Positions 15,386 through 18,768 of a stretch of DNA of 64,000 nucleotides are shown piece by piece. Under the pieces are notes generated by a model. That model was given only the letters and a program-made list of their open reading frames with translations. It had not been told where the DNA came from and searched no databases. Numbering within the stretch: the stretch's first letter is position 1; each line of letters opens with the position of its first letter. Made by a program: the position numbers and the translations under genes. The stretch lies in sequence record PZ583743.1. One strand, 5' to 3'. This DNA comes from a phage.

Positions 15386-15571
15386 TTAAAGCGTATTCAC
15401 ATAAGCTATTAATTCGTTTTCTTTCTTATCAAACCGGTCAGCAAATTCTTCTTGCTGTTCGGGAGATAGCGGGCCGTATTCATCATAAAAGGTGTTTACT
15501 TCTGTATGCTCATCTAGAAGTTCATGGATAAGCTCAAACAATTTATCTTTTTGTTCTTTGCTCAGACTCAT
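15386..15571 (-). CDS. Hypothetical acidic protein, 61 aa (tk.1 position)
   Basis: Track ORF. Confidence 0.5.
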   Translation of the reverse strand: MSLSKEQKDKLFELIHELLDEHTEVNTFYDEYGPLSPEQQEEFADRFDKKENELIAYVNTL

Positions 15572-15737
15572 ATATCAATTTCCAGAAGTTTTAAAATAAT
15601 TCGTTTTTGCTTAAATATTTCCATAGTTAAATGATCAGTATCTTTTTGACCAATTCCAATGGCAAAACCTTTATTAACAGCGAGTTCAATTAAATTATCA
15701 AGTTCACGTAACACTTCATATTGTAACTCAAAACTAT

Positions 15738-15944
15738 TCATTTTGGTTTACCTTCTTTAACGAAATCAGGATAAGGATAAAATCCTGAATAAAATCCTTC
15801 GCCTTTATGATTGATGCATCCTTTATTAGAGCAATAGCACCAATAATCGAAATCACAAGCCATTTCATCATTGCATAAAGCAAAAACAACTGGCCATTTA
15901 CACTTTTCACAATGGGCATTTTTAAGAATACTAGTTTGGCTCAT
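15738..15944 (-). CDS. Cys-rich small protein (~68 aa)
   Basis: Multiple Cys/His; start chosen at the ATG overlapping the upstream stop. Confidence 0.45.
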   Translation of the reverse strand: MSQTSILKNAHCEKCKWPVVFALCNDEMACDFDYWCYCSNKGCINHKGEGFYSGFYPYPDFVKEGKPK

Positions 15945-16153
15945 AACCATGTAACCTTTAAGCAATATTCTTCTACATGTTGTTTATGACCTTTCTTATC
16001 AATAAAGGTATATTCAACGAATGTTCCAATATAGTCTTTATCTACATCATGTGGACTATTAATTGGGCATTTAGTACGGCAAATGCGTTCCCATTGTCGA
16101 ATAATTTCCGCTTTGTTTTTAGGATCAAACGGATGCGGGTAATGCACTTTCAT
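15941..16153 (-). CDS. Hypothetical protein, 70 aa
   Basis: Track ORF. Confidence 0.45.
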   Translation of the reverse strand: MKVHYPHPFDPKNKAEIIRQWERICRTKCPINSPHDVDKDYIGTFVEYTFIDKKGHKQHVEEYCLKVTWL

Positions 16154-16604
16154 AATCCACCACTATTAAATCAATATCAGGAGTAAACATGTCGATTAAT
16201 TTAGAAACCTTATCCCAATCGCCGCCAGCAATACCACAACCTATGCGTGGAATATAAATTACTGGTTTAAACAAAAGGGTCTCTGCCTGTAGATTTAATT
16301 CTATCATGCAGTTTACTAAAGCACCATAATCAAGATTAGGACCCGGTTCGTATTGTGTATACAGGTTATAGCATATACCAAATCCTGTAGGATTATGTTT
16401 AAAAACAATAGACATATCGCCTAATTTATCACGAGAACCGTACTCGGTAGTGGTTTTATCTATTTCTAAAATTTTAGGATAGGCCCTTGCTAATTGACCC
16501 GCTACACCTGAACCCATAGTATGAAAACAATTGCACCCGTGCGCAATAATATTACCTTGAAGAAATAGGGCGACAATATCGCCCTTGATATATTTTACAA
16601 TCAT
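16125..16604 (-). CDS. Macro-domain-like protein (putative ADP-ribose binding/hydrolase)
   Basis: 159 aa; KGDIVAL...NxxGxxxGSGVAGQLARAYP...IPRIGCGIAGGDWD resembles macro-domain signature motifs (by eye). Confidence 0.6.
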   Translation of the reverse strand: MIVKYIKGDIVALFLQGNIIAHGCNCFHTMGSGVAGQLARAYPKILEIDKTTTEYGSRDKLGDMSIVFKHNPTGFGICYNLYTQYEPGPNLDYGALVNCMIELNLQAETLLFKPVIYIPRIGCGIAGGDWDKVSKLIDMFTPDIDLIVVDYESALPASV

Positions 16605-16942
16605 CTAGTACTCAATCCTCGATTATAAGAATCTACCAAACGGTCAACCATTGAATGACAAGCGGCTTTATCTTTCTCCTCCGCAACTGAACATTCTAAG
16701 GTATTCCACTTTTTAGCATATCGTTTTAATAAAGTATCATTTTTGTATCTGCTTGATTTATCTCTTTCTCCGTCTTTATATGCATATATTAATTTCTGCG
16801 CAAATTCAGCTTGGCATGCTTTATTTTTCCCACAATAATCCGCGGCAGTACGGTTTACATACTCTCTAATTTCAGTGTATGATGTATTTGCTAACGCAGA
16901 AAATGAAATTAATCCTACACATAAAACCAAAATTTTAGTCAT
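16601..16942 (-). CDS. Secreted/periplasmic hypothetical protein, 113 aa
   Basis: N-terminal signal peptide MTKILVLCVGLISFSALA. Confidence 0.5.
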   Translation of the reverse strand: MTKILVLCVGLISFSALANTSYTEIREYVNRTAADYCGKNKACQAEFAQKLIYAYKDGERDKSSRYKNDTLLKRYAKKWNTLECSVAEEKDKAACHSMVDRLVDSYNRGLSTR

Positions 16943-17976: not shown

Positions 17977-18006
17977 ATTATACCACAGTCAAGAGAAAAA
18001 GTAAAC
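17977..18006 (-). promoter_or_regulatory. Early-type promoter (GTTTAC, 18 nt, TATAAT) for regB
   Basis: -35 at 18001-18006, -10 at 17977-17982. Confidence 0.55.
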
Positions 18007-18288: not shown

Positions 18289-18554
18289 TAATATTTTTCC
18301 TCTGGTTGGAACACAGCACGACAAGCCCACATACTGGCTTCTTTGAGTTTCGTTTTAGCAATAGTTAACTGATCGAGACTTTTAGCATAATTCTTCGCGA
18401 ATTCACAGTCTTCACAATTATCTAACGCTTCCCAAAATTCATCATATAAAGCATCAAAGATAAGTCCTAAACGAACTTCAGCGTCTTTGATAGCATTCAC
18501 TTTACTGATTTTATCGTCAGTATGTGGCTTATAACCTTTAATGTCTTCAATCAT
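18288..18554 (-). CDS. Hypothetical protein, 88 aa (vs-region)
   Basis: Track ORF. Confidence 0.45.
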
Positions 18555-18768
18555 ATTTTACTTCCTCACCTGTTCCCAAATCATATTCAACTAAACAAAT
18601 AGGCTCATGAATGCCATATCCTTGAACAGAAATTTCTGTCGTAGGATAAATTCCATTAATATCACCCATGTTCCACGCTTCGTTAAATTGCTGTTCGCCT
18701 GAATTACTAAACCATTCGGCGAAAGCATTTAGCACATCTTCAGAACCTTCAATAATTATCTTTGCCAT
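18547..18768 (-). CDS. Hypothetical acidic protein, 73 aa (vs-region)
   Basis: ATG at 18766-18768 overlapping the upstream stop (TAATG). Confidence 0.45.
   Translation of the reverse strand: MAKIIIEGSEDVLNAFAEWFSNSGEQQFNEAWNMGDINGIYPTTEISVQGYGIHEPICLVEYDLGTGEEVKYD

What the first reader, a model, noticed from the sequence alone, without database searches (positions are those of the whole stretch)
16125..16604. Macro-domain-like protein in the tk-vs region
The 159-aa product has the motif pattern of a macro domain (KGDIVAL..., GSGVAGQLARAYP, IPRIGCGIAGGDWD), a fold that binds or hydrolyses ADP-ribose. T4-like phages ADP-ribosylate host proteins, and several bacterial defences use ADP-ribosylation or NAD-derived signals, so this could reverse or intercept such marks.
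Basis: partly seen in the sequence, partly recalled or inferred. Interest (0 to 1): 0.5.

Follow-up and report, generated by a model that had tools for sequence, protein, structure and literature searches.

The report
T4 Tk.4/AdfM-type phage macrodomain
This is an ordinary, already annotated gene of T4-like phages: a small ADP-ribose-removing (macrodomain) enzyme whose T4 counterpart, tk.4/adfM, was recently shown to protect the phage from the bacterial DarTG2 defence that ADP-ribosylates phage DNA.

Summary

The window is a Tequatrovirus (99% identical to phage vB_EcoM_P8). The gene sits between tk.3 and vs, so it is the positional ortholog of T4 tk.4. Public records already annotate it as "phosphatase, A1pp motif" or "macro domain protein". 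A 2025 preprint showed that deleting T4 tk.4 sensitises T4 to DarTG2, and renamed the gene adfM.

Two details are added here:
- The protein is not DarG-like at the catalytic position. It carries an invariant Gln84 where DarG and TARG1 have lysine, as in Streptomyces SCO6735, a proven thymidine-ADP-ribose DNA hydrolase.
- The window carries a second allele that is only 58% identical to T4 Tk.4 (46% over residues 51-155), although the flanking genes are 93-100% identical.

Activity of this allele is inferred, not tested. Interest is low.

The parts
16125..16604 (-). CDS of a 159-aa single-domain macrodomain protein, the positional ortholog of T4 tk.4 (= adfM)
16616..16620 (-). Shine-Dalgarno-like GAGGA, 11 nt upstream of the ATG
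   Evidence: Read from the sequence. Identical in T4 and HY01.
16601..16604 (-). ATGA overlap of the vs stop codon with the tk.4 start codon; translational coupling is inferred
   Evidence: ORF coordinates (vs 16601-16942, tk.4 16125-16604) and sequence.
16527..16541 (-). Codons for H22-G23-C24-N25-C26. N25 is the conserved macrodomain Asn; H22 and N25 correspond to SCO6735 His24 and Asn27.
   Evidence: H22, G23, N25 and C26 are invariant in 46 homologs. N25 aligns with the DarG Asn and with PhiKZ AdfM N23, whose mutation reduces activity. SCO6735 N27S is nearly inactive.
16497..16514 (-). Codons for G31-S-G-V-A-G36, the glycine-rich ADP-ribose-binding loop 1
   Evidence: G31 and G33 are invariant across the window protein, T4 Tk.4, BT1257, TARG1, DarG and PhiKZ AdfM. 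G33 and A35 are invariant in the family.
16353..16367 (-). Codons for N80-L-Y-T-Q84. Q84 occupies the position of the catalytic Lys of DarG (K80) and TARG1 (K84), and of Gln85 of SCO6735.
   Evidence: N80, Y82 and Q84 are invariant. The profile-to-TARG1 alignment puts NlYtQ against YLITK, and MAFFT puts it against DarG/PhiKZ FPTK. SCO6735 Gln85 sits at that position and Q85A is inactive.
16215..16250 (-). Codons for P119-RIGCGIAGGD-W130, the phosphate-binding loop 2
   Evidence: P119, G122, G124 and W130 are invariant. The motif PRIGCG(I/L)AGG.W is shared with BT1257 and SCO6735.
16120..16455 (.). Core of the divergent allele cassette. DNA identity to T4 falls to 45-67% here, against 92-100% in most of the flanking sequence (85% just before the cassette).
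   Evidence: Sliding identity. Per-gene identities. Residues 1-50 are 84% identical to T4 Tk.4 and residues 51-155 are 46% identical.
15941..16153 (-). Context: tk.3 ortholog (70 aa, 93% identical to T4 Tk.3). Its start lies 29 nt inside the 3' end of the macrodomain gene.
   Evidence: Annotated the same way in HY01.
16601..16942 (-). Context: vs (valyl-tRNA synthetase modifier), immediately upstream in the same transcription direction
   Evidence: 96% identical to T4 Vs. Annotations.

Best explanation
The gene encodes a stand-alone ALC1-like (TARG1/DarG/SCO6735-class) macrodomain. It is the window phage's version of T4 Tk.4, recently renamed AdfM. It lies in the minus-strand tk-vs gene run, and its start codon overlaps the stop codon of vs. 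Its most likely job is to hydrolyse the ADP-ribose that the host toxin DarT2 attaches to thymidines of single-stranded phage DNA. That would undo the replication block imposed by the DarTG2 defence, so the protein acts as an 'orphan antitoxin'. The chemistry is probably that of Streptomyces SCO6735 rather than of DarG. Gln84, held in place by Asn25, would position the distal ribose for attack by an activated water, because the catalytic lysine of DarG and TARG1 is absent. What is shown here: the ORF, the macrodomain fold, the structural class, the conserved active-site residues, and the positional orthology to T4 tk.4. What is shown by others: T4 tk.4 is required on DarTG2 hosts, and SCO6735 cleaves thymidine-linked ADP-ribose and needs Gln85 and Asn27. 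What is inferred: this 58%-identical allele has the same activity and the same target.
Against: No experiment exists for this allele. Residues 51-155 are only 46% identical to T4 Tk.4. For T4 Tk.4 itself only genetics is reported, in a preprint; hydrolysis of ADP-ribosyl-DNA was proposed there, not measured. The SCO6735 equivalences rest on sequence and profile alignments plus the paper's statement, not on a superposition with 5E3B. 5E3B did not appear in the listed fold-search hits. The phage protein lacks about 6 residues of the longer 'mobile loop' that the SCO6735 paper links to high activity. The HxCNC motif is shared with yeast Poa1p, an ADP-ribose-1''-phosphate phosphatase, so small-molecule substrates are not excluded.
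Confidence: 0.72

Rival explanations
1. It is a Poa1p-like ADP-ribose-1''-phosphate phosphatase, or another small-molecule ADP-ribose derivative hydrolase (for example of O-acetyl-ADP-ribose or of NAD-derived immune signals). It would act on metabolites rather than on modified DNA. This is the reading behind the database label 'phosphatase'.
Against: Many macrodomains show Appr-1''-p phosphatase activity in vitro as a side activity (general knowledge). T4's own tRNA repair uses Pnkp and Rnl1, which does not generate ADP-ribose-1''-phosphate (general knowledge). The only phenotype reported for the T4 ortholog is DarTG2-specific. The Poa1p alignment is weak over the C-terminal half.
Confidence: 0.1
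2. It removes ADP-ribose from proteins or RNA. It would either tune the phage's own Alt/ModA/ModB modifications and RNAylation, or counter a defence that ADP-ribosylates proteins or RNA.
For: ALC1-like relatives TARG1 and SCO6735 also de-modify Glu/Asp-linked protein substrates.
Against: T4 Alt, ModA and ModB make arginine-linked marks, which macrodomains are not known to cleave (general knowledge). No such phenotype has been reported, and the transposon screen found tk.4 only under DarTG2. Nothing in the locus links it to alt or mod genes.
Confidence: 0.08
3. It works mainly as a non-catalytic binder. It would either sequester ADP-ribose-containing ligands or inhibit DarT2 by direct contact, as reported for catalytically dead SCO6735 and DarG.
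For: SCO6735 Q85A still inhibits DarT in vitro by interaction. A deeply diverged surface beneath a conserved pocket could reflect co-evolution with a protein partner.
Against: Every residue tied to catalysis in SCO6735 is invariant across the phage family, which argues for selection on enzymatic activity. The protein lacks the C-terminal DarT-binding domain of DarG: it is 159 aa, and only positions 2-138 of the 338-position DarG model are matched.
Confidence: 0.07

Closest known systems
T4 Tk.4 = AdfM (anti-DarT factor Macrodomain), bioRxiv 10.1101/2025.11.20.689424
   Same: It occupies the same genomic slot (tk.3 - tk.4 - vs) with the same orientation and a 4-nt overlap with vs. It has a similar size (159 against 155 aa) and 58% identity (E 2e-70). 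The HGCNC, NLYTQ and P-IG-G motifs are identical, and the upstream SD and first 30 nt are identical.
   Different: It is a distinct allele. Residues 51-155 are only 46% identical. Loop 2 reads GCGIAGG, the family consensus, whereas T4 has GAGIGKG. It has a 4-residue C-terminal extension that overlaps tk.3 by 29 nt. Its function has not been tested.
Streptomyces coelicolor SCO6735 (PDB 5E3B), a stand-alone ALC1-like macrodomain that cleaves thymidine-linked ADP-ribose on DNA
   Same: It is a stand-alone single macrodomain. Gln replaces the catalytic Lys, and the His/Asn/Gln/Gly set that was examined by mutation (His24, Asn27, Gln85, Gly128) is conserved. It shares the PRIGCGLAGG.W loop. The family profile matches it at E 1e-15.
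   Different: SCO6735 is bacterial and chromosomal, not phage-borne. The phage protein has a shorter loop after the Gln than the SCO6735/BT1257 subclass. Overall similarity is low; the single-sequence match is E 1e-7.
DarG antitoxin macrodomain (M. tuberculosis 5M3I, T. aquaticus 5M31)
   Different: There is no catalytic Lys: NLYTQ replaces NFPTK. There is no C-terminal DarT-binding domain and no adjacent darT. It scores 27.7 bits against the 250-bit DarG equivalog cutoff.
PhiKZ gp104 AdfM (chimallivirus anti-DarT2 macrodomain, Cell Rep 2026, PMC13309987)
   Same: It is a phage-encoded single macrodomain that counters DarTG2, and it carries the same gene name. The Asn whose mutation reduces PhiKZ AdfM activity (N23) corresponds to window N25.
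   Different: It belongs to a different lineage. PhiKZ AdfM is DarG-like (E 9e-25 to Mtb DarG) and keeps FPTK. The window protein matches Mtb DarG only at 4.6e-5 and has Gln. The two are 24% identical. The two 'AdfM' proteins therefore look like independent acquisitions.
BT1257 (Bacteroides thetaiotaomicron, PDB 2AFC/2FG1) and yeast Poa1p (6LFQ)
   Different: BT1257 has no known function. Poa1p is a eukaryotic ADP-ribose-1''-phosphate phosphatase with insertions, and it aligns poorly over the C-terminal half.

Membership tests
Macro domain (Pfam PF01661) | Profile match above the curated gathering score | tested here: met
   33.1 bits against cutoff 22, E 5.8e-8, covering 2-117 of 118 profile positions.
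Macro domain (Pfam PF01661) | Three-layer alpha/beta/alpha fold with a central mixed sheet | tested here: met
Macro domain (Pfam PF01661) | ADP-ribose pocket residues: conserved Asn and two Gly-rich loops | tested here: met
   N25, G31/G33 and G122/G124 align with the same residues of DarG, TARG1 (Ser at the Asn position), BT1257 and PhiKZ AdfM. They are invariant in the family.
Macro domain (Pfam PF01661) | Measured binding or hydrolysis of ADP-ribose derivatives | not testable with these tools
   Requires purified protein.
ALC1-like / TARG1-DarG-SCO6735 class of macrodomains | Closest structural and sequence neighbours are class members, clearly ahead of MacroD, viral and PARG types | tested here: met
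T-even Tk.4 / AdfM | Sequence homology to T4 Tk.4 over the full length | tested here: met
   58% identity over 155 aa, E 2e-70.
T-even Tk.4 / AdfM | Conserved position between tk.3 and vs in a Tequatrovirus genome | tested here: met
   Flanking tk.3 is 93% and vs 96% identical to T4, in the same order and strand.
T-even Tk.4 / AdfM | Required for phage growth on a DarTG2-expressing host | not testable with these tools
   Shown only for T4 tk.4. The window allele is untested.
DarG antitoxin (NCBIfam NF048014 equivalog) | Full-length match above the curated cutoff, including the C-terminal DarT-binding domain | tested here: not met
   27.7 bits against cutoff 250. Only model positions 2-138 of 338 are matched, and the protein is 159 aa. 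PADLOC DarG likewise matches 3-144 of 329.
DarG antitoxin (NCBIfam NF048014 equivalog) | Catalytic lysine (T. aquaticus K80, 'FPTK') | tested here: not met
   Gln84 occupies that column and is invariant in 46 homologs.
DarG antitoxin (NCBIfam NF048014 equivalog) | Encoded next to a darT toxin gene | tested here: not met
   The neighbours are tk.3 and vs. A bacterial homolog (P0096) also has no called darT gene within about 6 kb on either side.
SCO6735-type (Gln) thymidine-ADP-ribose hydrolases | Gln at the DarG K80 / TARG1 K84 position, with the supporting Asn, His and loop Gly | tested here: met
   Q84, N25, H22 and G124 correspond to SCO6735 Gln85, Asn27, His24 and Gly128. This follows from alignment to TARG1 and DarG plus the paper's stated equivalence.
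SCO6735-type (Gln) thymidine-ADP-ribose hydrolases | Extended 'mobile loop' characteristic of the Actinobacteria/Bacteroidetes subclass | tested here: inconclusive
   In the profile alignment BT1257 carries a 6-residue insertion after the Gln that the phage family lacks. No direct superposition on 5E3B was available.
SCO6735-type (Gln) thymidine-ADP-ribose hydrolases | Hydrolysis of DarT-made dT-ADP-ribose | not testable with these tools
   Needs a biochemical assay.
PhiKZ-type AdfM (DarG2-like phage macrodomain) | Close homology to DarG macrodomains with a retained FPTK lysine | tested here: not met
   PhiKZ gp104 matches Mtb DarG at 9.4e-25 and has FPTK. The window protein matches at 4.6e-5 and has NLYTQ. 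The two are 24% identical.

The most novel reading that the evidence does not exclude
The T-even 'AdfM' lineage may be a lysine-independent, SCO6735-like (Gln84/Asn25) DNA de-ADP-ribosylase acquired separately from the DarG-like AdfM of jumbo phages. Two allele classes circulate in otherwise near-identical Tequatrovirus genomes: the window type, and the T4/T2 type with a GIGKG loop. They are 46% identical beyond residue 50. These classes may differ in specificity, for example toward different DarT2 variants or sequence contexts, toward other nucleic-acid ADP-ribose linkages, or in escape from a host factor that recognises the macrodomain. On that reading the locus would be an arms-race cassette rather than neutral mosaicism.
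Probability: 0.2. Interest if true: 0.45.

Novelty: already known. Interest (0 to 1): 0.15.

Why it matters
It matters mainly as confirmation. The gene is the window phage's copy of a counter-defence factor that lets T-even phages grow on DarTG2 hosts, and about 5% of sequenced phage records carry a relative. Two points may help people working on DarTG. First, the T-even protein has the SCO6735-type Gln active site, not the DarG lysine site it was compared with. This predicts different chemistry and different inhibitor sensitivity. Second, Tequatroviruses carry at least two deeply diverged alleles at this locus, so results obtained with T4 Tk.4 should not be assumed to hold for all T4-like therapeutic phages. 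The label 'phosphatase', used in many of the listed records, is probably misleading.

Tried and rejected
1. I looked for a DarG-type architecture with NCBIfam and PADLOC. Only weak matches limited to the macro domain appeared, so DarG membership was rejected.
3. The MAFFT alignment A2 misplaces BT1257 around the NLYTQ motif, giving Y at column 84. The HMM alignment (NMIGQ against NlYtQ) was preferred.
4. I checked a bacterial homolog (Pelagimonas, P0096) for a neighbouring darT. None was found, so genomic context gives no extra support for the DarT link.
5. The promoter scan found no more sites than shuffled sequence (13 against 14.4 expected), and none lies immediately upstream of the gene. 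Expression is assumed to come from upstream promoters of the minus-strand early/middle unit.
6. Plus-strand ORFs overlapping the gene (for example 15977-16186, 69 aa) were treated as spurious, because the minus-strand frame carries all the homology.
7. The idea that the protein reverses T4's own Alt/ModA/ModB marks was considered and ranked low, on linkage chemistry (general knowledge) and the absence of any phenotype.

Full report
**Observation**

Window 16125-16604 holds a 159-aa ORF on the minus strand, running from ATG to TGA (codons checked on the sequence and).
- KGDIVAL at residues 7-13.
- GSGVAGQLARAYP at residues 31-43.
- IPRIGCGIAGGDWD at residues 118-131.

A GAGGA Shine-Dalgarno-like element lies 11 nt upstream of the start. 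The start codon overlaps the stop codon of the upstream gene in an ATGA arrangement. The 3' end overlaps the start of the next gene by 29 nt.

**Whose genome, and which gene**

The surrounding 2.3 kb is 98-99% identical to many Tequatrovirus (T4-like) phages, led by Escherichia phage vB_EcoM_P8. That phage encodes a 100% identical protein annotated 'phosphatase'.

Per-gene comparison with T4 gives these identities:

| Gene | aa identity to T4 |
|---|---|
| rI.-1 | 100% |
| rI | 97% |
| rI.1 | 100% |
| tk | 99% |
| tk.3 | 93% |
| vs | 96% |
| vs.1 | 99% |
| regB | 99% |

The ORF occupies exactly the slot of T4 tk.4, between tk.3 and vs. The T4 record already says 'Tk.4; contains A1pp phosphatase motif'. 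HY01 annotates the near-identical gene as 'Macro domain-containing protein'.

**Is it a macrodomain?**

Yes, on every test available.
- Pfam Macro matches at E 5.8e-8 and 33.1 bits, above the 22-bit gathering score and nearly end to end.
- PHROG 335 matches at 1.9e-71.
- Direct sequence search of the PDB finds BT1257 (1e-10), yeast Poa1p (1.6e-9), SCO6735 (1e-7), the M. tuberculosis DarG macrodomain (4.6e-5) and human TARG1 (0.01).
- A profile built from 46 homologs sharpens these matches to 1e-19, 2e-15, 1e-15, 3e-11 and 6e-17 respectively.
- An AlphaFold2 model built on that alignment has mean pLDDT 94.3 and pTM 0.89.
- The top Foldseek hits are TARG1, Poa1p, BT1257 and DarG.

The protein belongs to the ALC1-like class of macrodomain hydrolases.

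**What is known about the ortholog**

A transposon-sequencing preprint (HIDEN-SEQ, bioRxiv 10.1101/2025.11.20.689424) reports three things. tk.4 was the single significant T4 gene depleted on a DarTG2-expressing host. A clean tk.4 deletion sensitised T4 to DarTG2. The authors named the gene adfM (anti-DarT factor Macrodomain) and proposed, but did not measure, enzymatic removal of ADP-ribose from DNA.

This fills a gap left by the AdfN study, in which T4 lacking adfA and adfN stayed DarTG2-resistant.

Independently, a chimallivirus macrodomain (PhiKZ gp104) was also named AdfM. It was shown in vitro to remove DarT2-made ADP-ribose from DNA, and mutation of a conserved Asn (N23A) weakened that activity.

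**Mechanistic anatomy**

Across 46 homologs sharing 38-79% identity with the window protein, the invariant residues are H22, G23, N25, C26, G33, A35, D49, G62, N80, Y82, Q84, G88, P119, G122, G124 and W130.

N25 aligns with the DarG Asn and with PhiKZ AdfM N23.

Q84, in the motif NLYTQ, falls in the column of the catalytic lysine of DarG (FPTK, K80) and of TARG1 (LITK, K84). The phage protein therefore lacks the DarG/TARG1 lysine. It also lacks the TARG1 aspartate, having A126 in that column.

This matches the situation described for Streptomyces SCO6735. That stand-alone ALC1-like macrodomain cleaves DarT-made thymidine-linked ADP-ribose. It has Gln85 at the lysine position, and Q85A is dead. 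Asn27 locks the Gln in place, and N27S is nearly dead. The authors propose a water-mediated mechanism.

The residues examined by mutation in that paper (His24, Asn27, Gln85, Gly128) correspond to H22, N25, Q84 and G124 here. The loop PRIGCGLAGGTW of SCO6735 is nearly identical to PRIGCGIAGGDW.

One difference stands out. BT1257, placed in the SCO6735 subclass by that paper, carries a 6-residue insertion after the Gln that the phage family lacks. So the 'mobile loop' feature is not clearly shared.

By contrast, PhiKZ AdfM is a true DarG-like protein. It matches Mtb DarG at 9e-25, retains FPTK, and is only 24% identical to the window protein. The two phage 'AdfM' proteins therefore look like independent recruitments from different branches of the same class. 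This is an inference.

**A second allele**

The window protein is only 58% identical to T4 Tk.4, although the flanking genes are 93-100% identical.

DNA identity to T4 is 93-98% just before the gene. It drops to 45-67% across 16120-16455, recovers to about 80% at 16456-16575, and is 100% from 16576 onward. At the protein level, residues 1-50 are 84% identical and residues 51-155 are 46% identical.

Megablast with the gene finds 318 of 560 phage records carrying the window-type allele over at least 80% of its length. These include RB3, HY01 and teqdroes. T4/T2-type records share only the first 140-150 nt.

The T4-type lineage (P0015, P0034) is roughly equidistant, at 53-60% identity, from most of the other Tevenvirinae-type alleles compared. 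It carries an unusual loop 2, GIG(G/K)G, whereas the window allele has the family consensus GIAGG.

This is a gene-sized mosaic cassette. Whether it reflects an arms race or neutral exchange is not known.

**Most likely function and rivals**

I commit to an orphan-antitoxin role with confidence of about 0.72. On this reading the protein hydrolyses DarT2-made thymidine-ADP-ribose on phage single-stranded DNA by a Gln84/Asn25-dependent, lysine-independent mechanism.

The rivals are:
- A Poa1p-like ADP-ribose-1''-phosphate phosphatase or other small-molecule hydrolase (about 0.10). This is the source of the 'phosphatase' label. The shared HxCNC motif supports it, but no phenotype does.
- Protein or RNA de-ADP-ribosylation, including reversal of T4's own marks (about 0.08). 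This is disfavoured by the arginine linkage chemistry of Alt, ModA and ModB, which is general knowledge.
- Mainly non-catalytic binding or inhibition of DarT2 (about 0.07). This is disfavoured by the strict conservation of catalytic residues and the absence of DarG's C-terminal DarT-binding domain.

**Membership**

- Macro domain: met.
- ALC1-like class: met.
- T-even Tk.4/AdfM: met on homology and synteny, with function untestable here.
- DarG antitoxin: not met. The score is 27.7 against 250 bits, and there is no C-terminal domain, no catalytic Lys and no neighbouring darT.
- SCO6735 type: active-site features met, mobile loop inconclusive.
- PhiKZ-type AdfM: not met.

**Verdict**

The identical protein is in GenBank, the macrodomain annotation dates from the T4 genome record, and the anti-DarTG2 role of the T4 ortholog has been reported.

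What remains of interest is modest: the SCO6735-like Gln active site, which the preprint does not discuss, and the deeply diverged allele class. I score interest at 0.15.

Noticed in passing
window 15386-15965 (minus strand): The interval between tk and tk.3 differs from T4. Where T4 has tk.1 and tk.2, the window has three small ORFs of 61, 57 and 75 aa. The 61-aa product is 54% identical to T4 Tk.2. The 57-aa product (PHROG 3452) and the Cys-rich 75-aa product (PHROG 2306, annotated in HY01 from a downstream start) have no match among the T4 genes compared (rI.-1 to vs.6). All are of unknown function.
   Followed up: partly
window 18547-18768 (minus strand): A 73-aa ORF (PHROG 1986, unknown function) sits where T4 has vs.5. 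Only 18 residues match T4 Vs.5. This is a second small mosaic replacement in the same gene run.
   Followed up: partly
window 16567-16585: A perfect 8-bp G+C-rich hairpin, AGGGCGATATTGTCGCCCT, lies inside codons 7-13 (KGDIVAL) of the macrodomain gene. The terminator scan flagged it on both strands, and it is identical in T4 and HY01. It could be an RNA structure near the translation start or simply a coincidence of coding sequence.
   Followed up: partly
window 17977-18005 (minus strand): This is the best sigma-70-like promoter match in the region: TTTACT, 17-nt spacer, TATAAT, with an extended -10 TG. It lies just upstream of regB and is the nearest candidate for driving the regB-vs.1-vs-tk.4 run. 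However, the scan as a whole found no more sites than shuffled sequence.
   Followed up: no
public records matching window 16125-16604: Annotation of this one gene is very inconsistent. Labels include 'phosphatase', 'RNase III inhibitor', 'Poa1p-like family protein' and 'macro domain protein'. In one record the features listed under the match include 'MazF family toxin-antitoxin system protein', though which feature that label belongs to was not checked. A 2026 T2 preprint calls it a 'putative thymidine kinase'. That preprint also reports that the T2 tk.4 mRNA interacts with the host sRNA ArcZ.
   Followed up: no
L003 6001-6459 (Pelagimonas phthalicica chromosome): A bacterial member of the same Gln-type family (P0096, 40% identical) is a stand-alone chromosomal gene with no darT-like neighbour. 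Its neighbours include a peptidase M23 gene and a tryptophan halogenase gene. Like SCO6735, it may be an orphan DNA de-ADP-ribosylase.
   Followed up: partly
PhiKZ gp104 compared with window 16125-16604: Two unrelated lineages of phage macrodomain now share the name AdfM: DarG-like with FPTK in PhiKZ, and SCO6735-like with NLYTQ in T-even phages. This is a nomenclature trap for annotation pipelines.
   Followed up: yes
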